Assembly (NCBI RefSeq): GCF_964355755.1
Contig: NC_092671.1
Location: 5,766,001 to 5,830,000 of the forward strand
From: Antedon mediterranea
Lineage: Eukaryota > Animalia > Echinodermata
Direction: 5' to 3'
DNA length: 64,000 nucleotides
Both the position numbers and the translations under genes were made by a program. The stretch's first letter is position 1. Each line of letters begins with the position of its first letter. The notes under the pieces were generated by a model. That model saw only the letters and a list, made by a program, of their open reading frames with translations. It was not told the origin of the DNA and made no database searches. Positions 7,498 through 63,842 of the stretch are shown here, piece by piece.

Positions 7498-10400
7498 CAA
7501 TTCGAAATTATAGAGTAGGCCTACTACTGTGGCAATCAATCAATGTCTTGATGAATTTACAATTTCAATAAATACTGTGAAGAAATCAAGGTTATTTTTA
7601 ACCATGGACACAATGTTATCAAACACGAAGGTCCAATCAATTAATTGTGCGTGTCTTTAAGATAAATAACTTGATTAAAAAATAAGTTAATTAAAAAAAA
7701 TGTAGTGTAAAGTACACGTACACACAAAAGAAGCTACCAACGTGTGTATTGTGTGTAAATTAGTTGTGAAGAGAAGGCAAACGCTACATTTCATCTAGGC
7801 ATGACCAATTTCATTTCTGGGTTTAAATTAATATCTCTTGATTAAATTAATTCATTTTTGATGAGCAAACCCCAAAACAAGCTCAATCAAGTTGTACACT
7901 CAATGGGTTTATGGTCTGGTTGCCTGATAGATCCATAAATAACAAAAAACACCGCTCATCTCACAATAACTACCGTACTGTCTACAGGCATCTCAATATT
8001 CATAGCCTCTTTTTTCCCAGACGTGCTTTGGGGTGTGCGCATGTCCAGTCCGGGTTTTCAGATTATAAGTTACCGCATGGTAACTGCTTTATAATGTTTC
8101 CATTCTCTTTAAAATAACTTCCTAAAGGAGTGGCGCGAAACGTCACGCCACCGCACAATGTCATCCCGCTGTTGTCTGTGTAGGCTAACACTAGTAACTG
8201 TTGCATGTCAACAAAATCTGCCGATGATTGAACCTGAAATCTTCATACCTTGATCATGCTATCTATAAATTTTACCGAAGGTTTACAATTTCATTTCAGA
8301 TAAAGTTATGAATTTATGACAGGAGTGATATATTGAATTGCAATCGGATGATGCTCCTTTTATCCACATCGAACGTTAAACTTACGATGTTGGAATTTGT
8401 CTATGGATCTCTTTGCCTATAATATTAAGATTACGAGATTACATGACATTACTATCTTAAGATTCCGATGAAGTCTCAACGGTGATTATCCTGATGTTAG
8501 GTGTAAAACATTTGTCAAAGTGTTATTTCCCGTTGATCCTAATCCGCGAACCAAATAAGGCATGTTCCCGTTGCCTCGGTACCTCGCCGTAATATAATAT
8601 AATGAATAATAATAATAATATACTGAAGTGTGTTGGAATAAAAATAATTCCAACAAACTATATAAGATAAAATACGATCTTTCGTCAATTTCTACAAAAA
8701 ATGCCAGTTAAAGAAACGTGCGCGCGTAAAATCAGTTTGCGTTTTAGTTAAAGTTACGTGAAACCCTATTTTAAGGAATACCTTTTCGATCCAACGATGT
8801 TCCCCTTTAATACAGTAGAGATGTACCGGAATATAGGTTGGCTTAGTGATCTGTATATTTCTTCTCGTTTTACTGATATAGGGATGTCGCCCTTTCTTTA
8901 GATTGCCAAGTTAATTTTGATAATCTGTTTTTTACAGGACCGAATTGCGATTCGTCAAATGGGAAAAAGGTAGATGGATTCAGCTGTGGTGATGGACAAT
9001 GCATATGGAAAAGCTTGGTAATAATCTACTTATAACTACTGCTAGTATAAGATATATCGATAAGGATCGAAGAAAACTTAATAGTACAGTAGATGAATTT
9101 ACTACACGCTGTAAAGTCATCTACTTACGTTAAGTAACTCTGTAGAGTCAGTATTGATTAGTTTTCAGTTTCAGTCTTTTTTATAAAGATAGGTGTCTAT
9201 TTCAATACAGTTTAAGCTTAAATTTAGTTTTTATTGGTTTTGTTATGATACTGTACAGCAACGCAACTGTTGTTTTCCTAAACACGTTTAAAACTGTGTT
9301 TTTTCAGCAACCACGCGATGGAGAACAAGACTGTTGTAATAGATGACTATTTCAATACAGTTTAAGCTTAAATTTAGTTTTTATTGGCTTTGTTATGATA
9401 CAGCAACGCAACTGTTGTTTTCCTAAACAAGTGTAATACTGTGTTTTTTCAGCAATGCGATGGACAACAAGACTGTTTTAATCGATTTGATGAAGAAGAC
9501 ACGTTATGCGGTGTTGATACGTACGTTTGTAAAGAAGACGAGTTTGATTGCGGAGACGGCTCTTGCATCAGTGCCTCCAAAAGATGTAACAATAAAAGAG
9601 AATGTAAAAATGGGGATGATGAGAAAAATTGTGACGATATGTATTGTAAGTCGACTATTTAATGTTATCTATCGATTGAATATTGTTAATTCGGTCCAAC
9701 AATTTGTAGGTTAATTATCCAATAATTTAATCCGAATGATTTATTAACTTTATTATTATAGCTTTGAAAACAAGATCGTCATTAGTACGGTGTCGCATGA
9801 CATACAATGTAAACACATACCGTATTCAGTACAGCTGTGTTTAAAGAATAAATACTATTTAGTCTCATTGCTCTAAATTCAGATCCGTTAAGTATAAAAA
9901 AACAAACATCTCTGTGTATAGTGGTATTGGTACACATTTCTTGATAAAACTGTAGGCCGACATTTAATCATCTTTAATGAATACGGGTCCAAACGATGTA
10001 TACAGCCAAGCTTAACGTTGTTATTGTTTAATATTATTTTACCATTTCAGTAATCCGACCAAATTGTGACGAGACCAATGGTAAACCTGTCAATGGAATC
10101 GATTGCGGTGACGGTCAATGTATATTAACAAACCAGGTTAGATAAGCAACATAAGCCTATAAATACGTTTGTTTATGATATTTATGATTTGTTTTATACA
10201 AAGAACACCATCTTTTTAAATGAGGGACTAACTAAAAAAACAGTATACTCACAGTAGCACAGCACAGTAGTATAGTTGAAATACGTACAATATACGAATA
10301 AATCCGAATGAAGATCCGAGTGAATATCCGAATGTAGACGTAACAACGAGCATAACGTATATTAGTTTCTTCTTACATTCTCTTCTCCTATCATTTTTGC

Positions 10401-11446
10401 TGTGTAACGATGTTTTTGTTTATGATTTACATTTGTTTATATACTCAAGACCACCATCTTTTTAAATGAGAGATTAACTAAAAAAAATATTAGTAGTAGT
10501 AGTAGTACTCACAGTAGAACTGTTGCATAGTTTAAATGCGAATATATCCGAATGAATATCCGAATGAATATCCGAATGAATATCCGAATGAATATCCGAA
10601 TGAATATCCGAATGTTGACGTCGTAACAACGACCTGTTGAAACTGCAACAAGAAAGTGCTGCGCAAAGGTATATTGGTTTCTTTAGCTTACTTTCTCTTC
10701 TCCTATCATTTTAGCTGTGTAACGATGTTCAGGATTGTTTTAACCGGATGGACGAATCATCTTCGACCTGCCCTGACAAGTTTGCAAATCTTTGTACTAA
10801 AACAGAATTTCAATGTGGTGATTCTAAGCAGTGCGTACCGTTAACAGACAGATGCGACGGGAATAAAGATTGTAGAAATAACGCTGATGAATACAAGTGC
10901 TCCAACAAAAAATCGTGTGGTAAAGGCAAAATTGACTGTGGCGATGGTGTTTGTTACAAACTAGATAAAGTAAGTTATCCCTTAACAAGCGTGACTTACA
11001 AGCGATGGATTATCTGAATTTCGCTTGTGATTGGTCAACTTGCCTGAGTTGCGCTTACGTTCTTGCGTTGCGAACTAGTGGGAACCAAGCTTTAGGACGC
11101 AAGGTCGTAAGCGCAACAAAAACGTGTTGATCAATGACAAAGTGAGTTCGGATAATATATTGCTTGTGATTGGCCAATTACTTGCGTTACGTAGCAACCA
11201 AAAGATAGTTTCCATCGCAAGGACTAGGGGTAACGCAAATAATTTGACATGTCACAAAATAAATCACATCTGCACAAATTTAAATAGTGAAAACTAATGA
11301 CCCCAACTATCACGGATTTTCTCATCTTTATTGTTTCATATTATTTATTGTAATAATTGTAATTTTCTGTCTCTCCATAGTTATGCGATGGTCGACAAGA
11401 TTGTTTCAACAACTCAGATGAAAAACATTGCACACCAAATGTATAA
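2999..11446 (+). CDS. Secreted LDL-receptor class A repeat protein (5 LDLa modules, no TM), ~249 aa, 6 exons
   Basis: Exons 2999-3068, 8938-9017, 9453-9645, 10051-10136, 10715-10969, 11381-11446. All introns are GT-AG, phases are compatible and the total is 750 nt. Signal peptide MKIQITLACLLAVVVYCSG, then five LDLa modules, e.g. CKEDEFDCGDGSCISASKRCNNKRECKNGDDEKNC and CTKTEFQCGDSKQCVPLTDRCDGNKDCRNNADEYKC. Stop after ...EKHCTPNV. The exon 1 link is the least certain part. Confidence 0.85.
7435..7493. repeat. (TA)n microsatellite
   Basis: Uninterrupted TA run of ~29 units. Confidence 0.98.
10540..10613. repeat. 12-bp tandem repeat (GAATATCCGAAT)n
   Basis: About 6 copies; shorter related array at ~10296-10333 in the duplicated intron segment. 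Confidence 0.9.
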
Positions 11447-16718: not shown

Positions 16719-16780
<62 letters not shown>

Positions 16781-16925
16781 ATGATGTTGCGTAGCACTGT
16801 GTAAATTATATATAAATCATACTGTAAATTATAGAAACAGTGCTCATATTCGGAACATGATCTCATAATCGCGTCGAGCATAGCTCATTGGCGAAAGTTC
16901 CATATTTTTTAGTTGTATGAAAAAA

Positions 16926-16997
16926 TGTCTCTGGCGGGATTCGAACCTGCAACCTCTCGCTTACAGGGCGAGTATCATACCACTAGACCACAGAGCC
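16926..16997 (-). tRNA. tRNA-like unit, copy 1 (identical to 17868-17939)
   Basis: Reverse complement of the unit at 17868-17939, inside repeat unit 1. Confidence 0.65.
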
Positions 16998-17292
16998 ATG
17001 TATGGTATTATCACAGATTTTCACCCACCAGATACATTCTCTCATACAACAAACGCCCTCACAATCAGTGGAGGCTTAACAAGTCAGAATAAATTCCAAC
17101 TTTAATTCGCAACGGTTTTTTAAATAATATTTTGTATATGTAAATCAATGATGTTGCGTAGCACTGTGTAAATTATATATAAATCATACTGTAAATTATA
17201 GAAACAGTGCTCATATTCGGAACATGATCTCATAATCGCGTCGAGCATAGCTCATTGGCGAAAGTTCCATATTTTTTAGTTGTATGAAAAAA

Positions 17293-17364
17293 TGTCTCTG
17301 GCGGGATTCGAACCTGCAACCTCTCGCTTACAGGGCGAGTATCATACCACTAGACCACAGAGCC
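17293..17364 (-). tRNA. tRNA-like unit, copy 2
   Basis: Identical copy in repeat unit 2. Confidence 0.65.
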
Positions 17365-17659
17365 ATGTATGGTATTATCACAGATTTTCACCCACCAGAT
17401 ACATTCTCTCATACAACAAACGCCCTCACAATCAGTGGAGGCTTAACAAGTCAGAATAAATTCCAACTTTAATTCGCAACGGTTTTTTAAATAATATTTT
17501 GTATATGTAAATCAATGATGTTGCGTAGCACTGTGTAAATTATATATAAATCATACTGTAAATTATAGAAACAGTGCTCATATTCGGAACATGATCTCAT
17601 AATCGCGTCGAGCATAGCTCATTGGCGAAAGTTCCATATTTTTTAGTTGTATGAAAAAA

Positions 17660-17731
17660 TGTCTCTGGCGGGATTCGAACCTGCAACCTCTCGCTTACAG
17701 GGCGAGTATCATACCACTAGACCACAGAGCC
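17660..17731 (-). tRNA. tRNA-like unit, copy 3
   Basis: Identical copy in repeat unit 3, in the left arm of the palindrome. Confidence 0.65.
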
Positions 17732-17867
17732 ATGTATGGTATTATCACAGATTTTCACCCACCAGATACATTCTCTCATACAACAAACGCCCTCACAATA
17801 TTGTGAGGGCGTTTGTTGTATGAGAGAATGTATCTGGTGGGTGAAAATCTGTGATAATACCATACAT

Positions 17868-17939
17868 GGCTCTGTGGTCTAGTGGTATGATACTCGCCCT
17901 GTAAGCGAGAGGTTGCAGGTTCGAATCCCGCCAGAGACA
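17868..17939 (+). tRNA. tRNA-like Pol III unit (tRNA-Pro-like body, TGT at anticodon position); probably pseudogene or element-borne
   Basis: GGCTCTGTGGTCTAGTGGTATGATACTCGCCCTGTAAGCGAGAGGTTGCAGGTTCGAATCCCGCCAGAGACA then T6. A box TGGTCTAGTGG, B box GGTTCGAATCC, anticodon stem CTCGC/GCGAG. One mismatch each in the acceptor and T stems; C rather than U at position 33. Confidence 0.7.
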
Positions 17940-18047
17940 TTTTTTCATACAACTAAAAAATATGGAACTTTCGCCAATGAGCTATGCTCGACGCGATTAT
18001 GAGATCATGTTCCGAATATGAGCACTGTTTCTATAATTTACAGTATG

Positions 18048-18534: not shown

Positions 18535-21500
18535 TTACGTAGATCCATAGATAAACAGAAGAGTGCTAGCAAAACCTGTTCCGGCTTCTAGTCGGGCGCT
18601 ATATATAGATTTCATATAGTTTATTGCTTCCAACTTGGATATATTGTCAATTTGTGAGGTTATTGCGTAGCAAAATACTGCCCATTGTGTTGAAACTGGT
18701 TCTAGTGTATATAGTGATAAGTCTATGAGATTAGCGCCTGGTGCCGTCGTCGGATTTATAGCCCAACTGCAAACGTCTTCTATATTCCGCGCCCATTCCT
18801 AATAAAATAAAACACATTGTGTGCATCTACCATTTTCGATACATATTTTAATATGTCGCGAAAATGGTAGAAAATAATGGTAAAAATCAGTAACATTAAA
18901 ATGTTGGTGTTTTATGCGTGCAACTTAAGTACCGTATAATATACGACTAAAGCTTGGTTGCTTCCCACTTCACGCAACGTATGCGCCACAAGCGATGGTG
19001 GATTATCAGCCTGAACTGTCGCTTGTGATTGGTAAACTTATTTGCGTTTCGCTTACGCCATTGTGTTGCGTCTAAGTTGGAACGAAGCTTAAAGAGTCGC
19101 TTCAACCCTTTTTTAACAGTTAATTTACCTGATCCATATAATGTTTTGACACGGATGTGATTGGCAAAATTTGAAGTCCAACTATACATGCATGTCGTTC
19201 TGGAAATTGGTCTGGGTTACAAGGCCAGCTTAGTGTATAATAGAAAATTCCATCCTCTTGCATCTGCCCTAGTACTCCAAAGTTTTGAATAATTGGCGGG
19301 AAAATATGTTTGTTGTGCGCTCTAACGTGCCAATATTCCCTCGTTGATCTGATTTCGGTAGCTAACATCAGACGGCCTATATTTTGCATTGTTACGTCAC
19401 CAAGAGCGTGCCCGAGCGCCGCCACTGCGTGGTAACAGTTAATTGCCTAAAGAATAAATCAATGACGGTCAAACACCATGCGTTTTAGCGGTGTTTTTGA
19501 CAACCAATATTAGAGACCTTTCGATTTGGGACGACTACTAGAACCATGGTTGCATCATGTTCATGCATTTGGGGACATAGGGGTCTGCTTTATCGCTCGA
19601 TTCCTCGAAATGGTTCTATGGAGTAATTCATTTTACGCGATTTTAATCTTTTTTAAAAGAATGGCACTTTGTCGAATTCTTTTGACTTCTAATTTAGACA
19701 AGCATCGGTTCTATGGTGTAATGGTTAGCACTCCTACTACTAAGTCCAGGCAAAAACAAACAACAATACATTGTGCGCTAGACTTGCCCTAAGTCTGTAA
19801 TGTTGTCTTTTTTATGTTAGCCGGCATGTTTAGTTTTGTTTCAAGTCAAGCGTATACGTATGAAACGTATTTTTACTAATATTAAGTAAAAAAACTAACT
19901 AATTGTGCGCTGGCAGCTGCATCCCCGTCGTCGCAAATCGAAAGTTTCCATTTTACTTTACGGGATGGATTTATCATCATTTGTAAGTGTCGCCGTGCAT
20001 GATCAAAATTTCTAAATAATCTAAAGAATAAATAAAAATGATGAGGATCTTACTTCACTGGTTGATTCTGTAAGCCGTGTACCCCCTCCAATCCCCGTTG
20101 CCCAAGAATGACCCATGTACCAATCTTTATGGCGTACGGTTGGGAAGAATGTGTCATTTTTACTGGGATTTGCAACATCACGAACAATTGCTGTAATTCG
20201 TTCATACGTATCTAAAATAATAAAAGATAACTTTTTAAATATTTACAAAATTGATACAGTATATTATTCTTGCATTGTATGTATTGTTTAAAAAATACAT
20301 AGCGCCGCCTATCAGTGAGTTGTAATGTATTGCTACATGAGGGCAGTATAGAAAGAATCCTAAAGTTGATCCTCGTTTTTAAGAGCTGCAGTTTAGTCTA
20401 TAAACATGGAGGAAAAAATCACATGGTTTTACGTACATAATCCACTTATTAGGTTGAACGGACATTAGAAAGTTCCCGCTAAATCACCACTCAACATTTC
20501 AAATATGGCTACACAGATTCTTCTTACGGAAAATAAATCACATTTATATACTGTATAATATATATAGAAATCCACCGAACTAACCATTTCGTGCTGCCCA
20601 TTCCATGTGGTGCTTTGCATAGTAAGCTATACCATAGATCCAATACCCAAGATGAATATGATGGTTTGAATAAGAGACAAATCCAAAATTGGTCCAGTAA
20701 TAAATTGGTTCATATTTTCTATTGCTATACAGGAACATACCTCCCCAAATAGAATCGTACCTGATTAAAAAGCATATCATATATCAACCATACCATACAG
20801 TAATATTAACGGGACACCTTCGGGACCCAAAAGTGTCTTGGTTGGTTGTAGTGTGTTAAAACATGCCCTATATTTGCCTCATTCATGTCTGGGAAGTCCC
20901 GTTAATAGAGGGATGTCCCTGTTTCTCAAAGAAGGTGTTCTACTGTAAATGTTTTATAAGCATAAATTTAAAATATATACCATATTATGCCTATATGTAA
21001 TATGTCATAAAAGTGAAAAGTGTTTTGGAATGACTCGTATGTCTGTAGGACTGCGTTTAGGACCTAATTGGCAGAATGTCGTACCTAAATACGTTTGCTT
21101 CAGTTATTCCTTCAACTATACCAAGCCAGAGATCTAAGCACCGACGTAATGATTCATCTAGCTTAGTATAATGATTTGTCCCAAATGCCCTGGATATGCT
21201 GGCTAATCTTGATACCATTCCAATGGATTTACCAGCCCAGTAACTTTGAGCGCCCTCGCGCTTGCAGTCTTTATCAAGTGTGTGATTGGCGGCGTCCCTT
21301 GCAATTCCATCTATGATATCCTAATCGATTAAAAACAATTTAAATTGGAATAAAGCTTTGTAAATACATTATTTAGAATAGAACACAGCTAGTTTATTAT
21401 AAAGCACGATACGCTCGCTTAGGTTTACTTATGTGGTTTTTACTTGGCTCTTGTGCTTTGAGTTAAACATCATTATTTTTGTGGGACGATACAACCAGAC

Positions 21501-24500
21501 ATAATAATTAGACCGTTTTTTCTTATCATTTACTGTACTTAGAAAGATATTCGATTGCACACATTTTGCGGACAGTTGTTTTTATTGGGAATTCATCTAA
21601 ATCTTTACATTAAGCATAAAAACGGAATAATTTTCAATTAAAAATGAAATTAATTCCTCGGAGAAAATAAATATATTGTAAAGACAAAGAAGATAAAGTA
21701 ATATATTTTGTAACCCACACATAATTTCTTACCTGTAGCATTGTTGAATTTTCTTTTATTTTCTTGACCTCTTGTGGATCTGGGTCCATTTCAGCACGAA
21801 CCAGTGGCTCTTCCATTACCCATAGGTCTGATGTATAACCTTTGAACCCAAATATTGTTGGTATCAATGCGTCTTTTTCGAGTAAGACTTCCTTTGAAAT
21901 AACATTGTTAGAATAGAATTTGGACATTTTATAAAAGTTTTAGACCACAAAATTTATAGTATTCATAGAAATGTTGACTGATTTACAATTGTTACCTTAA
22001 TGTCTGTCTATGGAAATAGTATTTTTTCCATCCCATTTATCCATCACCACTTTACTACAAGTTACAACAACATTATTCAACTTATTCCTCAAGCTTTCAC
22101 CACCATAATTACCCAACACTACCAACAAACATTATTCGACTTATCCCTCAAGCTTTCACCACCATATTACCCAACACTACCAACAAACATTATTCGACTT
22201 ATTCCTCAAGCTTTCACCACCATATTACCCAACACTACCAATAAACATTATTCGACTTATCCCTCAAGCTTTCACCACCATATTACACAACACTACCAAC
22301 AAACATTATTCGACTTATCCCTCAAGCTTTCACCACCATATTACCCAACACTACCAACAAACATTATTCAACACTGCATTAAATCTATTCCACCACACAT
22401 TTGGAACATTTGTGATTCATCAGAATTTTGAGGACAGTTAATACAAAATGGATATTAGAAGCATTTATAAATCAAATATGAAATTGTTAGAGATTAGAAT
22501 AATTTTTATGAACCTTTATTTAATTTATTAGATGGATATCTTTGTTGTTTTTGTTTGCTTTTATATTTAATTTTTTATTTGATTATGTTTGTCCTTTGTA
22601 ATGTATTATTATGATGAAATTTAAAAAAATATGTGATTCGTATCTTCAGTGAAGAGTGAAATTAAATAACTTTCTGTAATTTCACTGTTCCCTGGTATCT
22701 TGTTTATCAACTTGAAAACAATGTATAAACTTATAAACAGTTAAGGAAAAAATGGAAAAATCAGCACTGTGGTCAAAACAATATAGATTATCTGATAAAA
22801 CTCCTAGAAAGTAGGAAGCATTGTGCCTTTTTCCCCTGACTATAAACCTACATGATGCGGTAGTGTAACGATCAGCAGCTGCGGTTCCTGTCTGTTTTGT
22901 AAATACTGGAAAACATGCGTATTCCAATCCCAACTTATGTATCCTGTATCACCGAGAACACAGGTTCGAGTCCTAGGCTTGTAAGAATATATTCCAACGT
23001 GATGTTCAAGCTGTTTAACTGCTTCGAAGTCACCTTTCTTGCCTGTACCGGCAAAAGCTAATTGCATGATGCCTGTAAAGTTTTCAGATTTAGAATTGAA
23101 AAACGCTTTCCCGCCTTTTATAGTCATCGTCATTTTTTCTGAAAAAAAGGCTGCAAACTTTCTAGTGTTTAGTTTAGGGTCGCCTAATGGTTCAGCTAAT
23201 TCTAATATAAACGAATTGCTGCTTATTTCCAATGGCGGCTCTTGAGAAGAATTTCTGCTACTTTCACAAACAACCTGTAAATAAAAACGAAGTAATAGTC
23301 AATTCTTGAGCCTTAAGTTTTATTCTCAATTATATTTCATAGGTCCATGTTATCACAAAGGTCACTGTTGAAGATGGACATTCAGAGAGTCAATATAGTT
23401 TTTTCCATAAAATTGAGTTGAGTCAAATACCGTACCTCAAATGGAGATCTCTTCCAATTAAAAGGAATAGGCTGGACAACATATTGACCTATAACATTAA
23501 CAGCATAGACATGTGTATTAGTAGACACGGTGGCCGTGTATGTAACTCTCCTTCTATCGTATGATAACTGACATGTATTTTTGGTACACTTTTCCCATAT
23601 TCTTTTGTTATGCCATTCACTTTTATTTCCATGGAGGAACTGGATCTGTAAAATAATTATATATTTTAATATAACGCATTGAAAACATACATACTATTAT
23701 TCGGTAGATGTCGATTTAAAAATAAAGCCATATTCTCCAGTAACTAAATAAATCTTCACTGTGTATATGACTCATTTCCACATTGTGTCAATTTTTTATA
23801 ATAAATAAACACTTGAATACATGTGCTTCTTTTAACATAACAAGAATTAAATATATTTGTAAGTTCTTTGAAATTTGCATTAAATTATATTTTAAAATAG
23901 AAAAACTTAGTCATTCAATCCTATTGAAGTGTCACATTTTTTAATTTTTAAAAAGGTGTGAACTAAACATTTGAAATTTGTATTATTAAACCTTTTATCA
24001 ATCACCATTTAAGTCAAAGTTTTAATTCACAAGGGATTAAACAGTAATCTTATGATATATCAATATTCAGACATAACGACTTATTACTAATAAATGTTAT
24101 CAATGATAAGTGGTACCGAAAGATGTTGTTATAAGGGATAATTATGTATGATATTAAGCTCTGTCTATGTGACAACAAAAAAGGCATGTGCCCAAATAAT
24201 AATGGTAGCGATATGCTCAAATATGGCAGTGATATGACATCATGGCACATCACATTTTGTTGTCACATAAAGTTTGATAGTGTAGACAAGGCTTTATATA
24301 GAAGATCTCCTTGTTTATAAGTAGGCAGTATATATGACACTTTCATTACATTTGACAGATGTATAGTATCATAACCCCACACTCTGATGACTAGCAATGC
24401 AATGAACTCAGTTTAAATAATTTATCAGCCTGAGTCCTAAAGTCTATTTTACTTATGGAAAAAACACACCTCTTCCAATCCACCAAAAACGTTTTTTGAT

Positions 24501-27500
24501 GTGACGTTTATCTCAAGTGTGGTTCTACCACAACTCGCAGATACTGATGCACTTCCGTAGAACCAATTATTCGGCATCCGAGTTCCAATATTCAATTGTC
24601 TTTCAGTTTTATTGTCACATGTCACGTGCATTGGGTTCGTAATCCAGTAGCCATAATAATCGTTGCTAGGAATCATATAGCGATCAAGAACATTAATGGA
24701 ATATACCATGTTTCCACCATTATAGTTCGGAATGGCCATCTCCACCATCATCTTGTCATCTGACAATTTGCATATAGCATTGTTGCAGGTTATCATTTCA
24801 GCGTCTGTGTACCACCTGTATTTAAGTTTAAAAATACACTTGTAACATACTTAAAAGGAAGTTCACATAATTGTAATTCTTCAGTACATTTCCTCTTGTA
24901 TTAGACTTAATTCAAAGAAAACAACTTCATAAAAAGTGGAGAACAATATCTCACTCAGCCATTTCCACTACTGCGGTACGTTCAATATATTATTGTACTG
25001 CAGTACCGTACTTACATATCAATTCGCGACGCTCCCCATTGTACATCGGTAACTTCTTCAATCGGTTTTGTCATGTGAAGTGTCAAGTAGAGAGTTTCTT
25101 CAGCACTGCTACAATAGGCTTCTACAAATCCAGATCCCGTATCCTCACCTAAAAATGTCCAATTGGTGAATAAAGAAAATATAAAAAGCATTTGAATTTT
25201 GCGGAAAGTATATATCCTAATCCACAAAACTGTGTACCAAATGTGTAATGACGTCATAGTTTCCCTAGGTTACAGGATACTGAGCTCGCCTTGCCAAGAT
25301 AGGAACTCGAGACAGTCTTATGTATATGGCTGCGACAAATACCAACAGTAAGCTACTGTACTATGTACATACTCTGCGCGGTGTATGTTAAGGGCGTGAA
25401 ACAGATCGTGTCGCAGCCACAGATAAACCCTTTAATCTTCGGAGCTCGGCATCCTGTTAGATTGTCTTGGGTCGAGACACATCGATTATTAGGCAGGAAC
25501 GTTACTAACACTAATATTCACAAAACTTATAATTTGCAAGACTCTTACTTGACTCTTCTTCTGGGCAACCAAGTGATACATCTTGACCATTAACGGCAAC
25601 CAGACAATGTGGTGTTAGAATGGGATTAGCTTGTGTGAATATGTGCGTCAACATTGCTGCTCCTCTAACCAAAGGAAGCTCTAGTGTTCCACCGTCAGAA
25701 GAAGTGTACAGAAAATTAGCATACATTTCTTCAAATGATGTCATTTCCGGATGATTTGTGTTGGCAATTCCAACTTGAACACCAGACAAGCCTACAGTAA
25801 TTGATAAACAAAGTTCGTCCTAATTTTCCCTTAACATTTTACATTGATTGTGCATTTAAAAGCTAGCGAACTGTTATGGACTAAACTAATAAATAGATGT
25901 TTTAATCGTGGATAATTATAATACAATTAATTATAATGTAATCAATTGTTTTTTATTTTTAAAAAATAAATAGCTTTTTTGTACCTGTAAATTTGCTAAA
26001 AGGATTGCTATCTGGACCGGAGACCATCTGTTTCATTCCTGTACCAAGGGAGTCTAACTTTATCCAGGGGTTATCTTTCTTTCCCGGTGTAAGTTGATGG
26101 AATGTATCACTCCGCGTACTCGCATTCCATCTTTCTAACGTGTATGCATCGTATGTTATACCGTCCTCATTCATAATAGCTATATATGTCAAAAAGTAAT
26201 CCCCAAATAAATTATGCCCATGTAAATTGATTACATTTTTATGAACGGAAATTGATGAATGTAAATGTCAAATTATTTAAGCATAAAGTCACAGTAATGT
26301 ATTACTGGATGCTGGTACTATCATCTCTATCAGGCACAAATAGAGAGATTTAAGTAGTCTCTATTACTTTAGATATTTCCATTACATATTTTATCATTCT
26401 ACCTATCATTGCCGACCATCATACTCGTACATAATTATCATTCAATCTCTATGCATGATATGTACTAACAAAGCATAGCTAATTATTACAGAATTACCTG
26501 AATAGGGTATTAAGCGTATAGGAGCTGGGTTATTATGAATTGCATTGCTAGCAAAATGTCCAGTTGGTAGGGCTCCCTCAGACCTTAATGTACCAGTGTG
26601 TAATGGAGGAGCGATCCTTTCCAGTATCGAACTTGTTCCAAATATCTCAGATACATCTTCTGTAGATAATGGCTTATCGTGAAGAGTATTACATGCTAGA
26701 GGTAAGCCACCTGATCCTAGAAAAAGATATATCCAAAATCATTAAAGAAAAAAAATATAAAATAAATTTCATTCAGATCTTAGTAGTTAGTCTGTCTTTC
26801 CATTTCAATATCTGGAAGTAACACCGGTTCATTGGAATTAAAAATAATTAGTTTCCTGCATATTGCGTCATACGTTACTTACAGCTAATCAAAAACCCTG
26901 ATAAAAAAGTGGGCGTGTAATGTTACCAATATCTATAACGTCAGTTCTTGCAATAATTGGCTCAATTATTTACAACATAATATACACACAAAAGTGTATT
27001 CATTAATTAAAGCTTTAATGTATTTAAATGATAGAACCGGCCGGATTATAGTTGCATATTCGTTTATTATGCCACTTGCATTTTAAATTAACAGGAATTG
27101 TCACACAAAGAATTTAATCATTTGTGTCCATCAGGAATTATAAATGAAACTACTATAAATATTTAAAAACGCCACAAATTAAATAATTTGCCTGATCGGT
27201 TCGATAAATCTTGTTGGAGACGCTTCCATTTAGGGCCTATACATATTGAATGAATTAAGTACTACAGTAGAATTCCTATACAAGAGACACTTGGACAGGG
27301 GTTCCCGTTTACACGGGAAGTACCGGCATGGTGTCCCCTAAATAGAGGTGTCAGATTGAAGGGATTCTGGTGCAATTTTTTTTTCAAATTGTTTTTCTTT
27401 CTTTTTTCGTATTTATACGGTGTTTGGTTATTTGTTAATATCACGAACTTGTATAAAAACAATCAATTGAACAAGTTGTACTGTGCATCAGTCTCGTGCC

Positions 27501-30500
27501 TAGTAAAGTTTATATATTATTCGCAGGTAAACCGAGAATTTAATGTGTGAACAAATAATTTAAAGGCAGGTTATTTGGTATGCAGTAGCTTGCTTGCTAC
27601 AAAATATAACCTGTCTTGATGAAGATAAACCCGTTAGTTCTATCATCTTAATCCTAAAAAATAACCAAAAGTAATGCACTCGGATAGCGTGGGTAGATTT
27701 ATAGTGATCAGTTTTTCCAATTAATTTTTATGACTACAGTTGTAATAATTAATTTTAGCAAGTTTGGTAAAAATCCATTTATTTAAAGCGATAATAAAAA
27801 TAAGAGAATAAGAATTATTTTTGGAGGACAAACATTAATAAACGCTTCCACTTTTCTCTTTATAAATTTAAATATTTAGAGTAAATTTAGCTCATGTCAA
27901 AGTTTATGATCAATAGTTGTCAAGTTATTTTTTTAAATCAAACTATGAATCTGTAACATCTAATCTAAATCCATACATAATGTTAAATATATTAGCAATA
28001 AGACTATACGGGTTTGTTAGCACACCTTAATTGCAGAGCTATATACTGAAAGAGAAGAAGAGATAAATAGTATAATTGATATGCAATAGTTATAAGCCTC
28101 TAGCGAAGCTTACTGTCGAATCCCACATTTTCCAAATTTGCTTGCAGCGTTTATTATAGGTTACATCACTACAAGTGACAGATATGACATTATTTTCTGG
28201 ATTGAATGATTCAGGCCAACGAGGTCAGCAAATAATATACAAATTCCTACATTGGGTACATATACATTACAATTATATATAATATTAACAATAATAAATA
28301 TATCTCATATTAATAGCACCTAATTTTCCAGTTTAATCTTCTGTAGGCCTAATGAAAGTTACCTGCGCATGCCCGTAAACATTTTTCTTTAGTTATAAAG
28401 TTGTTTCTATTTCCTTTACAACCTTTGTAAGTAAACTTTCTGCATGTGTTTCCGTCGAAACTCCATCGTTGATGTGTTTTGTGGCAATCTCCAACTTTAA
28501 TAGGTAATAAACACAGGTCTTCTACAAAATAAAAATAGTTTTTATGAAAATTATATTCTATTTTTCCATTAATTTATTATTATTTTATCCATTTATTATA
28601 AAGACAAAGATCATCCACACATTGGTTAGCGACGTCTATCAAAACTTGTCCTGTATAAATCTGTTCAATTATAAATTTTAGAAACGCTCTAGTTTTAAAA
28701 CTATTTGGATCTGCTTAGGAACCTGTTAATTTGAGTACATCGACGCCATTTAGGCTTTAGGAATTACGGAACAACTTGGATAGATAATTCTATGTAAGTA
28801 CTCGTAAGCCCATATAAAAACATCTCTTTTTGTACAGTTTAGACAGCTGACATAAACCAGGAGTAGTATATGTTTCATTAAATATTACTATGAATCCATA
28901 TACACTTAAAAATGTTAAGGAAATTAGGTTAAGGTTAGCCAGCCCAGAATACCAATTATCGTCCTTTTCGCAATTGGAATAGACACGCAGACTAAAGCTC
29001 TGCCCATGGTCATGATGGTGTCATATCACTACGATATTTTTGCATATCACTTCCATATTTGGCACATCACACTTTTCTTGTCAAACTAGTTTGATAATAT
29101 AGACAGAGCTTAAGGCCTATATATTAAACATGCCATGACGTTATAACTATATAATGGAACATTAATGCTTCATCGATTAGTTTAATAATTTCTCATTTTA
29201 AATCAATTTACCTGTCTGAACAGTGATTAAGATTGATATACAGATTACAAATTTGACTCGACCCTTATCAATAAATTAGCCATCGATAAAGATAGGTTTG
29301 TTGATTCATGTTGACAACATGACACGGTAATAAACTCTTTATTAATATATTCACATATCTAAATAATTAACTGTGTTTAATATTAACATTGTATATATTA
29401 TGTATTGACATATTAACATGTTTAATGCAGCAGAATGTGCACCATGATGGCTTCCATTTCCCAAAAGCAATTACAGCTTTTTACATAATAACTCTTTATT
29501 AGTCCTAATCATTTCTCAAGATATTTTTCATTGTTTTTTCTTCTTTTACAGGATCCTCAGTAAAGTCTTAATTATATTATGTATATTATTGTTAATTTGC
29601 CATTATTGAAACAAATAAATGTTCTTAAATTGAAAAATGATTTTTTCTTTCTCGTGAACAAAGTTGCATCAACATCAAGTTTTATCTTTAACTTTTTAGA
29701 TCACACAAAACGACAAACATTGTCATCACTCTGATTTACTGGTGTCATAATTGCTCGTTTGTTGCCGTCTTATAACAATATATAAAGAACTGAAATGTAT
29801 AGTCTAGTTTTAAAGGCATAGAATTGTTTCATGTGGTATTGTATCTTTTTATTTTGTTAATTATACGTATAATTATCTCGTTAGTCCTATTATTATGTAA
29901 CGATGAGAAGCAAGTATGCGAAGAATGATACATAAAATCATTATTTTATGAACTATTTTGATCTTTTTTTGCACCATAATAGGTATTTCTACACTTATAA
30001 TAATGAGACTGTCTTCAAACTCACTTTCATAATAAAATTATACTATTAATGTTATGATATTTTCTGGATCAAATAAATCGACTTGTGACTTGTGTCTGGC
30101 AATAAAAATGATAATAACGATGTAATGTGTTTAATCAGGTAAGATAAAAAGAAGAGATATCTTTATTATAGACCTAAATAACATTAAATCCTGATGCTAA
30201 TTTGATATGGGTCACTAAAACTTTTGTAGCAATCTTTAAACACACGTGACCATTAATATCAGTAACACCGCGCTGTTTTAAAGGAGCATGTCATATTCTA
30301 CCTATACGACAGCTATAGTAAATTTTAAGTAATCTTATAAAGTTTTACTAAATGCAATTTAATTATAGGATATTATGGACCACCTACCTTTATGTTATAT
30401 TATTATATCATCTACAATTATGATGAAACTGAATATTTTATGTTGTTTAATGTACAGCCTAATAATAGCATAACTTAGAATAGAATAACGGGTATATAAA

Positions 30501-32922
30501 AATTAAAGTACATCATTCGTTTCAGTTACCGCGTGATTTTATTGGATAATGTTCTACTAAAAGACAATAATAAGTTACTTCTTACTTTATTGTTCTCTGA
30601 CTGTATGTACACTTCTATAAATGCATGTCATAATTATTGAATGATTATTTATAGTGATCCAGTTGAGATATAAAATCATGTTATGTTTTTTTTTTAACTT
30701 TACGACACTTGAAGTCCATGGTGCGGGCACAATTCTATTGATCATACATTCTAATAATTATTATCGATCTATATCGATTTGTGTACAAGAGTTCATAATT
30801 TTCGGGATTGTTATTGTGACATAATGATTTTGTTGAAAATACAGTAATCATTTTCTTATCATCTACACAGTAAAATCCCTAAAATCCTATTCTCTTCTAC
30901 ATAAATGTTTAAACAATTAAGAAAAATAAACGGTGTGGTACCAATTAGGGTTAATATCCTAGTGATTATTCATTATGATTTAAATTATATACAAAAATAA
31001 TAGGTTAAACTTTTAATTCTCTATATGGGAATTGTACGGCAGTATAATAACCATGTGATGCCTTTGGGAAATATGACTTTGGTAACAGAGGACAAGTTAA
31101 AACAAGTATTATGACAGTCAAAGCATACCGGTAATGAAAAATTCGTCCATTTTATTTGATAATAATGTACCGTAAATTTTTTTAACACTTAAAGATGTAT
31201 TGTCCCCTGAAGAAATATTTTTTTTGTTGAATATGTCATTTTAATGTCACATAATAATAATAATTTGACCAAAAATGGGATCAGAAAAAAAAATGATTTA
31301 CCTAAAAAAACTGTAATTTAAAGCAAAAAAAATAGTCAAATTGGCTGCCAGTCATGATGGGATTTTGGTTGAATGTAACTATAGTTTTTGTCGGTTTTTT
31401 TCTATGGAAGTGATTAACTTTATAAAATCTACAAAATGACCTATTGAAAGTAAGAATTTTTATTAATGTTCATTTGTCATGGTTTTTTGGGAGCAATACA
31501 TCTTTAAGATATTATCGGAATTGATGTCCTTATGAATATAGGAATACTCTACTAACTTTCATAATCTACCAGTAGGCCTATGTAAATTTAATTATACCAC
31601 TGAAGTTTTAACCTATATTATTATTGCCAAAACGTTTAAGAGAGGAAATGTGGTAGTTTTTAGAAGAACTATGCTTTTATAGAAAACTATAATATCTCAT
31701 AGCATGGAGTACTTTAAACATTTATGATCCTGCAGTGGGATAAAATATTGGCTTCGATGAAACACTATTTTTAATTCATCTTTGTTTATTTTTTAACAAA
31801 TCTTCTTTTCCAATCTTCTGAATTATGTGTGTTTAGCCTAGCAAGCAATCGTTACACAGCTTCTATACCATTTACTATTAATGAGTATACAACATTAGTA
31901 GATACATTACCGACATTAACATATATGCCTACAAATGGCTTATACTGTAGTTCATCACTCTGTATTATGCATCATCTAACATGTGAATATTTCATACCAT
32001 TTAAATCAGACAGTATATAAATCATATTACCTTATTTGACGATAAAAGCTTTTAGTGTGTTCTGCGCATGCGCTTTGATACACGGCCGTCAACACTGTCA
32101 ATAATTTTTAACTCATTCATTCACAATTGCCTTCGTTTCTATTCTTCTGGGTATTTTCGATTCATAAATTGTTACATAAATATAAATGTTTTCTTATTTA
32201 TCTTTTAGTTTGATCTAAATCTTACTTAAATGCTTACCTTTGAATTACTTTCATTAATTAAGAAGCAAAAAGTGACGTTTGATGGATTTGCTTTCATTAT
32301 GCTATATTAAATATTATGATTTCTAATATAAATATATGACAATAATATCATTATTTAATCATAGTTTAAATAACATTTTCAAAATTTAATTTCATAATCA
32401 TTTATGTTTGTATTAAACAGTATAAAATTTAATTATTTTTCATCTAGAATATATATTAATATACCGGTAGGTATACATTAAATTAAGAAATGAGAATTGT
32501 TCAATAGGTATCATGAACCTCCACCTTATTGTATTCATAATTTATACTGTTTTACTTCTTAATTGCCTTTTAAAATTAGACAGATAGTTGCTATCAATAA
32601 CCATAGAACGTAATAATGTTTATTATGATGACATAATTACTTTAGGAATATCTTATTTTATTAATGTAACATTACACAAATACTTACCTTCCTTGTTAAT
32701 ATATTCTTCTCCCAAGTTTTTTATTTTATGATCTAAGAAAATGGTGTACAACGCAGCAACGATACCACCAATAATCAACAAGACAGTCGCGATGACAAAC
32801 ACACAGCAAGTAGTTGTCTTAGGCGTTGGTTCTTTCTTAGATGGCACTACTGAGGTTGAAAGACTTTCGTTTAATTGTTCTTTTAACTCCACATCTACAA
32901 GATCACATTTACTGTTTGCCAT
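18535..32922 (-). CDS. Type II membrane Kunitz-domain / glycoside hydrolase family 81 (endo-beta-1,3-glucanase-like) fusion protein, ~1157 aa, 15 exons
   Basis: Exons (minus): 32922-32688, 28521-28363, 26716-26498, 26179-25985, 25791-25549, 25148-25016, 24815-24470, 23645-23436, 23274-22852, 21891-21733, 21320-21085, 20760-20585, 20211-20054, 19446-19129, 18798-18535. All GT-AG, open through 3474 nt. GH81 motifs in order: LPTGHFASN..PIRLIPY, LPLVRG, TLPHH, SYWAGKS, RYDSIWGG, NFG..YSNHHIHLGY, RDVANPS.NDTFFP..RHKDWYMGHSWATG, ESTSEAIN, GLQILPIT. TM helix VFVIATVLLIIGGIVAALYTIFL in exon 1. Confidence 0.88.
19512..19950. mobile_element. MITE-like element with ~22-bp imperfect TIRs carrying a 5' tRNA-Gln fragment
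   Basis: Left GAGACCTTTCGATTTGGGACGAC vs right GTCGTCGCAAATCGAAAGTTTCC. Internal GGTTCTATGGTGTAATGGTTAGCACTC (19707-19733) matches the 5' 27 nt of eukaryotic tRNA-Gln. Lies in a GH81 intron. Confidence 0.55.
22062..22372. repeat. ~58-bp minisatellite, ~5 copies, intronic
   Basis: Unit ACATTATTCGACTTATCCCTCAAGCTTTCACCACCATATTACCCAACACTACCAACAA repeated head-to-tail without unique spacers. Confidence 0.95.
25280..25470 (+). repeat. Dispersed ~200-bp repeat, second copy at ~46813-47015
   Basis: Shared TGAGCTCGCCTT..AAGATAGGAACTCG...GGCTGCGACAAATACCAAC...CAGCCACAGATAA...GAGCTC..ATCCTGTT..GATTG. Confidence 0.75.
28363..28521 (-). CDS. Kunitz/BPTI domain exon (phase 1-1) of the GH81 fusion gene; absent from the ORF track
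   Basis: Translates EDLCLLPIKVGDCHKTHQRWSFDGNTCRKFTYKGCKGNRNNFITKEKCLRACA: six Cys in Kunitz spacing with F.Y.GC.GN.NNF. Flanked by acceptor ttttgtAG and donor GTaact. Confidence 0.9.
31189..31507. mobile_element. MITE with TTAA target duplication (Kolobok/piggyBac-type target)
   Basis: TTAA-AGATGTATTGTCCC ... GGGAGCAATACATCT-TTAA. Confidence 0.75.
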
Positions 32923-45100: not shown

Positions 45101-48100
45101 ATAATGAGGACTGGCTATTGATCTTTTGCGAAGTTTCTGACGACTTCTGAGACAATGTCCTGATTCACAAAATTTTAATGTTCATGTTGCTATAATCTCA
45201 ACTGTCTATTGATCCTTTGTGAAATGTGTGACTACTTTTGACAAGGTCCTAATTTAGTAGTATGTAGGACTGTCTTGACCATTCCTAGTACTCATTAACA
45301 ATTCTGATCTTAAAATGGAAGCGTGCAGTAGCAAAAAGATAACGAACAACCATAGGCCTACCAACTCTATCCCACCATGTTTATCGGTCAGTTTCCACAG
45401 GGGTTGAGTTCCCCTTGTTAATCCGGGATTGTTTCATGAAACCACTCACGCAATACAGACCACAGACAGTGACACACAATTGATTTAAATCGATAGTAAT
45501 TATTCAATGAAACATCACCACAGTGTTATTACATTATTTTGGGCTATAATGTGACAGGTTCGCCTGTACTTTCCAATAAACTGTGTGGGCAGGTATCCAA
45601 AAAATATTAGCACGCGAGTGTATCTGCTAATTATTTAAGGATCCTCACGTTTATTTTTTTTGTTTACTTGTTCATTTTTAACTTAAGCATGGATGAATTA
45701 GCTTTCAACTATATTTAGACTATATCATACATTCTAATAAAATATAAATTAGTTTACATATTATTTTGGATTATGTATTAATTCAGAATATGAATTATAC
45801 CATTATTCAGATGTTGATTGCATTGTCCTACGGTACAAACGAAGACAATATTTATTTAAACCAGGAAAGAGTAAAATTCACCTGATTTAAACTAGGGTGG
45901 ATCGGTTATTGTACACAACCTTTTTGCATTGTGTCTGCCTATATTAATATGATTCATAACTATTGCATTTAAAATGTTCACATTTTGTTCACAAACAAAT
46001 TCATTTTAATGTATGGTGAACTCACTTTTGGTAATGTGTTCTATTGTTTGTGTTTTAATTTATTAGTTGATAAACGGGACCATGACCGTGTTTACATGCC
46101 TGATTGTATTTCGCTATTTTATTTCGGTATTTTATTTATGGTTTAAGGGTTTAAGCCTTATTAGTCTGGGTTCCAGATGGAGTTTTGACTTAATATTGCT
46201 AAAAGATAATTATTTTGGCACATATGGCGTTTCATACGTACTGCTTGAAATTTAAAAAAAATTAATTTAAAAAAAGACAATACAGAGTTAGCGCAAGTCT
46301 AAAGCCTTATATGTACTAGCCTTATCTCGTTTTTTCGAACTACCAAGGTGTATATAGGCCTTTTTATTTTTACTTTTTGAAATTCTGCAAACATTATTGC
46401 GTACGCACGCGGCTTGTCAAAGAACTTCTGTTTCTAGCCTAATATTCTAATATCAACAGCAGTAAAGTCTAGAAATATTAAACAAACGATCATGTGATTA
46501 TACAACATCAAAAACCCGAAAAGACGGTGTTTATAATAAGGTACGCACTCGCTTTAGAAGGCCATAGTGTTACGACTTTGTCACAATACATTTAAATTTG
46601 AAGATCGTATAATTGAAAGACATTTCCAATATGCTATATTTTTTTACAATTTCTGTACAACTGGGGTGGGTTAATTGGAGGGGGGGGGGCGACCACTAAG
46701 CCCGAATTCGACCCAGTGATCGAATAAAACTCTCTCACCTTTTCGATTACCCGCGTTTTGTAAGGTTAAGTTAGGTTATTGTATATGAAACCAAGGCAAT
46801 CTAACAACACACTGAGCTCGCCTTCCTAAGATAGGAACTCGTAACAGTTCTTTGATCTTATGTCTGGCTGCGACAAATACCAACTTGACTGTAGGCCTAC
46901 ATAATACTGTCTGCGGCGCGCGGTGTCTGTTAGGGGGTGTGGAACTGATCGTGTCACAGCCACAGATAACCCCTTTGATTTCCAGAGCTCAGTATCCTGT
47001 TGTTAGATTGCCTTGATGAAACTAGGCGATACATAATATGTGATGTGATGTTGTAATGAGGGATTTTTCCTACGATACTGGAGAAATGTAGATACAGTTC
47101 CATTTTTTATCCGGCCACTGGACCGGAATCCGGGCTCAGTGTGAACGTAGCCTTAATTTATTTTTAATTATTAAAATTTGTATTTCTACAGCGATTTCCA
47201 CTTCCGCTACAGACGTTTCGTTGTCTAGATGGTCAACTAATCGATGTTGAAAATGTATGTGATGGCTATAGGCATTGCTTAGACGATGAATTATGGTGTT
47301 CAGGTACGACTTGTTTTGTTTGTTTACACGATAATAATCAATGTAACACTTCTTACGCTATTAACCACTGTAGCAATGTGAAAAACAATGCATTTTCAAT
47401 TAAATGAATCGAATAGATGAGAATTTCATCCACCCACGTTCTTAATAAAACACAGTTGCTATTAGCCGCCTGGTATCAGATCATACGTTTTTTTTACTAC
47501 GTCAATACAATCCTTCTCTAATTGATAACAATAATAATAACAATTATACCACATTTATATAGCGCCCTTTTCATAAATAAACATGCTCAAATGCATGTTT
47601 ATTAATCACTGTTGCTTGGTGGTTAAATGCGTTAAAATTGTATTTTTGTGTTCAACTTTATTTTCCCAATATAGGCTTATTGAAACGCTTTCATTTTTTT
47701 CATTCATTCATTTATTCATTCATATTTTCAAAATAACATTTTGTGAGGAAGCGAAATAGTAGGAGCCTATATCTAGAGGTATAACATGCTTCAATTATTT
47801 GAAATACAGAAATTGGTTAGGCCTATTAATTACATAAATGTGAACCCTCTTATCGCCTAATAATAGTGCAATCATGTATCATCCTTATTATTTATTTGCT
47901 ATCAAACTTTGTTTATATACTGTGTACACTGTCACTTTCATGCTAAATTTTTATATTAAATATATGTCATTCATCGGTAATGTCATCATTAAGTCATGTG
48001 GATCAATATGTTAGTAAAAAACGTAGAGTTTGTTTGAAAGGTGATTTAAATACGCTTACTTGCCAATCTGGAATGATCATGAATCAAGACATTTTACCAT

Positions 48101-63192: not shown

Positions 63193-63842
<650 letters not shown>

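What the first reader, a model, noticed from the sequence alone, without database searches (positions are those of the whole stretch)
20585..20760. GH81 catalytic-acid Asp replaced by Asn (YSNHHIHLGY): probable pseudo-enzyme
Seen: the codon at 20666-20664 (minus) is AAC, giving Y-S-N-H-H where the family motif is Y-N/S-D-H-H-F-H. The ESTSEA glutamates (exon 20211-20054) and the substrate-contact motifs (HSWATG, YWAGK, ILPIT) are intact and the ORF is unbroken. Established: structural work on bacterial and fungal GH81 enzymes assigns this Asp as general acid of the inverting mechanism. Inference: a D->N change would cripple hydrolysis while leaving the binding cleft, paralleling insect GH16 glucan-recognition proteins that lost catalytic residues.
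Basis: partly seen in the sequence, partly recalled or inferred. Interest (0 to 1): 0.85.

Follow-up and report, generated by a model that had tools for sequence, protein, structure and literature searches.

The report
Feather-star glucanase missing its catalytic acid
A feather star keeps an intact, spliced gene for a predicted membrane-anchored beta-1,3-glucanase (family GH81) in which an otherwise near-invariant active-site aspartate is an asparagine, so the protein likely cuts glucan poorly or not at all and may serve mainly to bind it.

Summary
Codon 20666-20664 (minus) is AAC, giving Asn885 in an unbroken 15-exon, 1157-aa protein (transmembrane anchor, Kunitz, GH81) identical to an NCBI Antedon mediterranea protein. 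Asn885 aligns with the DHH aspartate of solved GH81 structures. That position is Asp in 129 of 130 motif matches, including the crinoid Anneissia. Both catalytic-side glutamates are kept. A spliced contig from a second, closely related species keeps Asn, so it is not an error or a private allele. Exons 12-13 differ between the two species by 8 silent and 3 replacement changes (dN/dS about 0.09), so the gene is still under purifying selection. The cleft is not intact: F888I, Q958L and Q/E959T lie beside the catalytic residues. And, from recall only, engineered loss of this Asp kills one GH81 but leaves partial activity in two others. Best reading: a lineage-specific, catalytically crippled GH81 kept for binding (0.5); rival, a slow or retargeted enzyme (0.3). 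No activity, binding or tissue data exist. This is a new variant of a known kind (pseudo-glycosidase).

The parts
32688..32922 (-). exon 1: start ATG, cytoplasmic tail, predicted type II transmembrane anchor (about aa 40-62)
   Evidence: helix 40-68 in the model
28363..28521 (-). exon 2: Kunitz/BPTI domain, six Cys, His at the P1-like position
   Evidence: PF00014 E 1.5e-17
26498..26716 (-). exon 3: start of GH81 N-terminal beta domain
   Evidence: tblastn with sea-star orthologue
25985..26179 (-). exon 4: GH81 N-terminal domain
25549..25791 (-). exon 5: GH81 N-terminal domain
   Evidence: PF03639 E 2.7e-4
25016..25148 (-). exon 6: first half of inserted beta-sandwich repeat 1
24470..24815 (-). 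exon 7: inserted beta-sandwich repeats 1 and 2 (FnIII/Ig-like; also in echinoderm orthologues that keep Asp)
23436..23645 (-). exon 8: end of inserted repeat 2
22852..23274 (-). exon 9: GH81 N-terminal domain resumes
21733..21891 (-). exon 10: linker to the barrel
21085..21320 (-). exon 11: barrel start, YWAGK (Y801 and K805 invariant in A1)
   Evidence: junction to exon 12 seen as a loose end in X9
20585..20760 (-). exon 12: carries YSNHHIHLGY
   Evidence: PF17652; both junctions seen in spliced contigs
20664..20666 (-). codon AAC = Asn885, in place of the conserved Asp (general acid, role recalled)
20655..20657 (-). Ile888, in place of the conserved aromatic (Phe 87, Tyr 12 of 102 homologues)
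20054..20211 (-). exon 13: D941, HSWATG, L958-T959 (changed), E960 (codon 20068-20066), E964 (20056-20054)
   Evidence: joint 20211-20585 in X5
19129..19446 (-). exon 14: barrel, ILPIT
   Evidence: PF17652 E 4.6e-11
18535..18798 (-). exon 15: barrel end and TAA stop

Best explanation
This is an intact, spliced crinoid GH81 gene whose predicted membrane-anchored protein has Asn in place of the aspartate thought to be the general acid, so it likely hydrolyses beta-1,3-glucan weakly or not at all and is likely kept because it still binds glucan at a cell surface. Shown: the gene structure, Asn885, retention of E960, E964, Y801, K805, H886, H887, H889, D941 and W948, Asn in a second species, and an excess of silent changes. 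From established mechanism (recalled): GH81s invert, a Glu activates water and this Asp protonates the leaving oxygen; an amide cannot donate that proton. Inferred: the ancestor was a gut-surface laminarinase (TM-Kunitz-GH81 in echinoderms; mollusc orthologues peak in hepatopancreas). After the split from Anneissia the catalytic pocket changed (D885N, F888I, A896G, P874Y; Q958L and Q/E959T cannot be dated) and purifying selection then held the new state. The folded barrel and its inserted beta-sandwich domains would grip algal or fungal glucan without cutting it.
For: Asp in 129 of 130 motif matches and 31 of 31 other animal rows. Of 57 columns at least 90% conserved, the protein keeps 54; N885 is the only departure that is both radical and at a 59/59 column. 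Organism B keeps Asn in a spliced contig. Exons 12-13: 8 silent changes in 69 sites against 3 replacements in 264, dN/dS about 0.09, Fisher p 2e-4; all 12 indels shown lie in introns. Tree of aa 775-937: Antedon groups with Anneissia (88/85), branches 0.29 against 0.11. Relative-rate counts 19/4, 16/7, 18/3, 17/4, 16/5 with five echinoderm outgroups. The model is confident (pLDDT 86, pTM 0.85) and matches GH81 structures (E 2e-30).
Against: No assay, binding or tissue data. The acid role is recalled, not read. PMC3627985 lists D518, D588, E609 and E613 of yeast Eng2 as necessary; spacing could not tell me whether D518 is this Asp, and I recall it is not, and that the equivalent mutants of ScEng2 and TfLam81A keep some activity. 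F888I and Q958L may weaken binding, which cuts against a lectin role. The rate excess vanishes with the hemichordate outgroup (9/9), the five echinoderm outgroups are not independent, and the barrel as a whole is no faster than in other echinoderms. The inserted domain matches CBM56 no better than FnIII domains (Z 8.1-8.2). There is no signalling motif evident in the 40-aa tail.
Confidence: 0.5

Rival explanations
1. Still an enzyme, but slow or retargeted. Base E960 and E964 are kept, and water or a neighbouring His (H886, H887, H889) supplies the proton, or the remodelled pocket acts on a substrate with a better leaving group. Selection maintains that activity.
For: All other catalytic-site residues are kept. 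No second GH81 copy was found to take over digestion. A His general acid exists in GH117 (PMC11574756, abstract start in listing). Recalled: partial activity of ScEng2 and TfLam81A mutants at this Asp; myrosinase works with Gln in place of its acid/base.
Against: Asp is kept in every other sequence that matched the motif, which implies a large cost of losing it. Recalled: the soybean GBP Asp mutant is inactive.
Confidence: 0.3
2. The protein is kept for a role that does not need the cleft (Kunitz domain, FnIII-like inserts, or scaffold), and the catalytic pocket is drifting.
For: Several pocket residues changed together. Residues 591-774 also show 1.2- to 4-fold excess change against other echinoderms. 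Low dN/dS fits any folded protein.
Against: Y801, K805, H886, H887, H889, D941, W948, E960 and E964 are all retained. The Kunitz domain is ancestral in echinoderms and absent from the Patiria orthologue.
Confidence: 0.12
3. A young pseudogene-in-waiting: activity was lost and the frame has not yet broken.
For: Longer Antedon branch; 22 of 261 animal-conserved columns depart, the upper end of the range.
Against: dN/dS about 0.09 between two species that both carry Asn, exon frames intact while introns carry many indels, and spliced transcripts in both.
Confidence: 0.04
4. Asp is restored after transcription or translation: A-to-I editing of AAC to a GAC-reading codon, or deamidation of Asn885.
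For: A single A-to-G reading change suffices. The X5 spliced contig stops at 20664 and so does not cover the base. Contigs drop rare variants.
Against: The spliced X9 contig reads A at 20666. Editing would not explain F888I or Q958L.
Confidence: 0.03
5. Sequencing error or private allele.
For: Only one database protein carries Asn.
Against: No variant in two runs of sample S1; same base in organism B.
Confidence: 0.01

Closest known systems
GH81 endo-beta-1,3-glucanases (BhGH81 5t4a, RmLam81A 4k35, CtLam81A 6fop)
   Same: Pfam PF17652 and PF03639, beta domain plus (alpha/alpha)6 barrel, both glutamates, Y/K, HH-H and SWA motifs.
   Different: Asn for the DHH Asp; Ile for the following aromatic; Leu-Thr before the catalytic Glu; TM anchor, Kunitz domain and two inserted beta-sandwich repeats.
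Echinoderm TM-Kunitz-GH81 orthologues (Diadema, Lytechinus, Strongylocentrotus, Holothuria; Anneissia fragment XP_033118541.1)
   Same: Same architecture where full length, 48-51% identity overall and 75% to the Anneissia fragment.
   Different: All keep the Asp and the aromatic. None is among the characterised GH81s listed in 2022 (PMC9609564 section 21).
Plant GH81 beta-glucan-binding proteins (soybean GmGBP, barley GBP1)
   Same: GH81 proteins linked to glucan binding or perception.
   Different: These are active hydrolases; barley GBP1 needed an engineered E500A change to lose activity.
Insect GH16 betaGRP/GNBP receptors
   Same: Glucanase homologues that lost catalytic residues and are thought to keep binding (PMC6403176 passages).
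   Different: Different fold; they lost the glutamates, gained a recognition domain and arose by duplication beside an active paralogue. None of that is shown here.
Other pseudo-glycosidases: GH18 chi-lectins, Klotho (GH1, Asn at an acid/base position) (recalled, no call)
   Same: An acid-to-amide or similar change in a retained barrel; Klotho is membrane-anchored.
   Different: Unrelated families with demonstrated non-catalytic roles and wide conservation; this case is seen in two close species only.

Membership tests
GH81 | Profile match above curated cut-off (PF17652, PF03639) | tested here: met
   166.3 and 32.1 bits against cut-offs of 25.6
GH81 | Beta domain plus (alpha/alpha)6 barrel like solved GH81s | tested here: met
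   Predicted model; the top 15 Foldseek hits are all GH81, E 2e-30 to 4e-22, target TM 0.66-0.80
GH81 (active enzyme) | Catalytic Glu and Glu+4 | tested here: met
   E960 and E964; E960 aligns with the 6fop E515A site
GH81 (active enzyme) | Asp of the DHH motif (general acid, role recalled) | tested here: not met
   Asn885; Asp in 129 of 130 matches
GH81 (active enzyme) | [quoted passage not shown] | not testable with these tools
   Needs an assay
Non-catalytic glucan receptor (betaGRP/GNBP-like role) | Loss of catalytic residues | tested here: inconclusive
   One of three catalytic-site acids lost; effect on activity unmeasured
Non-catalytic glucan receptor (betaGRP/GNBP-like role) | Dedicated glucan-binding module | tested here: inconclusive
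   No CBM Pfam hit. Insert is a beta-sandwich: ChiW Z 10.3, rmsd 2.0, 89 aligned; CBM56 Z 8.1, rmsd 2.3-2.7, 82 aligned, tied with FnIII domains
Non-catalytic glucan receptor (betaGRP/GNBP-like role) | Glucan binding and downstream immune activation | not testable with these tools
   No data
Non-catalytic glucan receptor (betaGRP/GNBP-like role) | Active paralogue retained after duplication | tested here: inconclusive
   One GH81 in the window; no second Antedon protein; whole genome not held
Kunitz/BPTI | PF00014 match with six cysteines | tested here: met
   E 1.5e-17; six Cys in the exon 2 translation
Kunitz/BPTI | Protease inhibition | not testable with these tools
   P1-like residue is His and varies among orthologues

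The most novel reading that the evidence does not exclude
The first natural GH81 pseudo-enzyme: a single-copy animal surface laminarinase converted, without gene duplication, into a membrane-anchored beta-1,3-glucan receptor or particle-capture lectin in one crinoid lineage, with the active ancestral state still present in Anneissia for direct comparison.
Probability: 0.3. Interest if true: 0.65.

Novelty: new variant of a known kind. Interest (0 to 1): 0.42.

Why it matters
No animal GH81 appears among the characterised members listed in 2022, and my ten paper searches listed no natural GH81 lacking this Asp. An Asn-bearing and an Asp-bearing crinoid orthologue, 75% identical over 163 aa, give a natural experiment on how much the GH81 acid matters and on how an enzyme becomes a binding protein. 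If it binds without cutting, it adds a third fold (after GH16 and GH18) to animal pseudo-glycosidase lectins and a candidate glucan sensor in a poorly studied echinoderm class. If it is still active, the accepted GH81 mechanism needs an alternative proton donor. Scope is narrow: two close species so far.

Tried and rejected
No whole genome is held, so copy number rests on database searches and the window. Run X5 (organism A, independent sample, spliced) stops at 20664 and says nothing on the first codon base. No run was on record as RNA; transcription is read from spliced joints only. No other crinoid covering the site was found beyond Anneissia. ESM Atlas gave no usable hit for aa 352-465. 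Foldseek on the insert gave only weak Ig-like hits; VIA did not single out CBM56. Spacing could not map yeast Eng2 D518. Three look-ups of primary GH81 papers failed, and searches for the residue numbers found nothing relevant. Earlier scan notes: nothing. No complex prediction was run, since glucan is not an available ligand. The idea that TM or Kunitz arose with the Asn was rejected, because Asp-bearing urchin and sea-cucumber orthologues have both. Supplements of papers were not read.

Full report
Gene and identity. Six-frame translation and splice-site inspection give a 15-exon minus-strand gene from 32922 to 18535, all introns GT-AG, 1157 aa, no internal stop. A search with exon 14 returned a 1157-aa NCBI protein named for the crinoid Antedon mediterranea (XP_071940914.1), identical to my model. 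It has a short tail, a hydrophobic helix near aa 40-62, a Kunitz domain (E 1.5e-17) and GH81 N- and C-terminal domains. The N-terminal domain is interrupted by two roughly 110-aa beta-sandwich repeats. Sea-urchin and sea-cucumber orthologues share this layout, so it predates the change in question. Hemichordate, lancelet and several mollusc orthologues begin with signal-peptide-like ends instead (read by eye).

The substitution. Bases 20666-20664 read AAC, Asn885. Pairwise alignments place it on the Asp of the DHH motif of CtLam81A and RmLam81A and place E960 on the site mutated to Ala in 6fop. An Asp-bearing orthologue aligns the same way to BhGH81, with 76 residues between Asp and Glu (my count), which matches the D466/E542 pair I recall. 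Among 248 fetched proteins, Kunitz-only hits included, 130 matched the motif pattern; 129 had Asp and only this one Asn. In the 103-row alignment the other 102 rows had 100 Asp, one gap and one Ser from a fragment that does not cover the motif. The crinoid Anneissia japonica keeps YADHHFHLGY and groups with Antedon (support 88/85; 32 rows, one dropped for short coverage). The change is therefore younger than that split. The AlphaFold model is confident (mean pLDDT 86.4, pTM 0.85) and its 15 best PDB matches are GH81s. The tool gave no residue-level structural alignment, so the register rests on sequence.

Is it real and fixed? Nine runs hold the stretch; I laid seven. X1 and X2 (sample S1, possibly the assembly's source) agree with the window at the site. 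X5 (organism A, another study) has a contig joined across intron 12 but ending at 20664, so it is uninformative for the first base. X9 (organism B, a close relative) has a 1463-base contig covering exon 12 whole, with loose ends matching exons 11 and 13, so it is spliced. It has 4 differences: 20631, 20646 and 20716 listed, and a fourth unlisted, probably 20594 as in X6 and X8. None is listed at 20664-20666. Asn is thus shared by two species and present in mature transcript. Contigs hide rare variants, so low-level editing is not excluded.

Selection. The differences of organism B listed in exons 12-13 are 8 silent and 3 replacement (K868T, A909T, I920L), over 69 and 264 sites: dN/dS about 0.09, Fisher p 2e-4. 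The table showed 40 of 80 rows; rows shared by X6 and X8 appear complete up to 21008, but this is not certain. All 12 indels shown (19 more not shown) are intronic. Against Anneissia over aa 775-937, Antedon-unique changes outnumber Anneissia-unique ones 19/4, 16/7, 18/3, 17/4 and 16/5 with echinoderm outgroups, but 9/9 with a hemichordate. Against other echinoderms the barrel is not faster overall, while aa 591-774 is. The protein keeps 54 of 57 near-invariant columns. This fits a local remodelling followed by constraint, not decay.

The cleft is not untouched. Y801, K805, H886, H887, H889, D941, W948, E960 and E964 are kept. But position 888 is Ile (Phe 87, Tyr 12 of 102), 958 is Leu (Asn 54, Gln 26, Asp 7) and 959 is Thr (Gln 68, Glu 21); A896G departs from 31 of 31 animal rows, and P874Y from Anneissia and the other echinoderms. 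I recall that the Phe equivalent of 888 was important for substrate binding in TfLam81A. Organism B shows no listed replacement at 885, 888, 958 or 959.

Literature seen. PMC8949617 (passages): BhGH81 is inverting with an (alpha/alpha)6 barrel. PMC3627985 (passages): yeast Eng2 needs D518, D588, E609, E613. bioRxiv 10.1101/2023.04.12.536646 (passages): barley GBP1 E500A is inactive. PMC9609564 (passages and section 21): characterised GH81s are bacterial, fungal and soybean. PMC7560691 (passages): molluscs have 0-1 GH81 genes, highest in hepatopancreas. PMC6403176 (passages): insect GH16 receptors lost catalysis. PMC12276306, PMC8254974, PMC11084152 and PMC10441804 (passages) added nothing. Pluvinage 2017, Zhou 2013, McGrath 2009 and Fliegmann 2005 were seen only as reference entries. 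The acid assignment, and the mixed results of mutating this Asp (inactive in soybean GBP, partly active in TfLam81A and ScEng2), are recalled. Ten searches (listings only) showed no paper on a crinoid GH81 or a natural GH81 pseudo-enzyme; the library lacks most subscription journals.

Mechanism and verdict. With the base and most cleft residues in place but an amide at the acid position, the protein would still be able to hold a beta-1,3-glucan chain but could not protonate the leaving oxygen efficiently. Its retention under purifying selection, membrane anchor and extra beta-sandwich domains (FnIII/Ig-like; CBM56 tied with many others) make a binding role the likeliest reason to keep it (0.5). 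A slow or retargeted enzyme is a serious rival (0.3), the more so as no active paralogue was found (genome not held). By sequence and fold it is a GH81 member; it fails the test for a canonical active GH81 site; it is not shown to be a receptor. It is a real, clean and cheaply testable case: interest 0.42.

Noticed in passing
window 24470-25148 and 23436-23645 (aa about 353-583): Two tandem beta-sandwich domains inserted in the GH81 N-terminal domain, no Pfam hit; best structural match of the first is a domain of chitinase ChiW (Z 10.3), with CBM56 at Z 8.1. Possibly an unnamed animal glucan-binding module.
   Followed up: partly
window 16768-17940: A 367-bp unit repeated 2.8 times at 99% identity, each with a tRNA-Thr(TGT)-like gene, and a fourth inverted copy at 17867-17940, just downstream of the GH81 gene.
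   Followed up: no
window 22065-22369: 58-bp minisatellite, 5.3 copies, in intron 9 of the GH81 gene.
   Followed up: no
window 20804-20837: A short dispersed repeat of about 33 bp in intron 11 that draws unrelated contigs in both species.
   Followed up: no
protein P0126 (unnamed ENA record): A GH81 relative that keeps the Asp but lacks both glutamates and the HH-H motif in the alignment: another candidate dead GH81.
   Followed up: no
protein P0090 (CAH6421015.1): A GH81 annotated from an uncultured virus on a 548-kb contig.
   Followed up: no
protein P0014 (Lingula anatina): Metallo-beta-lactamase-fold domain fused to GH81; may be a gene-model artefact.
   Followed up: no
window 55468-61853 (+): Several similar 140-170 aa exons with no Pfam hit (4 scanned), a Gly-rich stretch at 57146-58102 and VWC-like exons near 60383-60914.
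   Followed up: partly
window 9399-11014 (+), 47168-50427 (+), 63627-63842 (+): LDL-receptor class A repeats (Pfam hit at 10715-11014; the others by eye) and an OB-fold exon at the window end.
   Followed up: no
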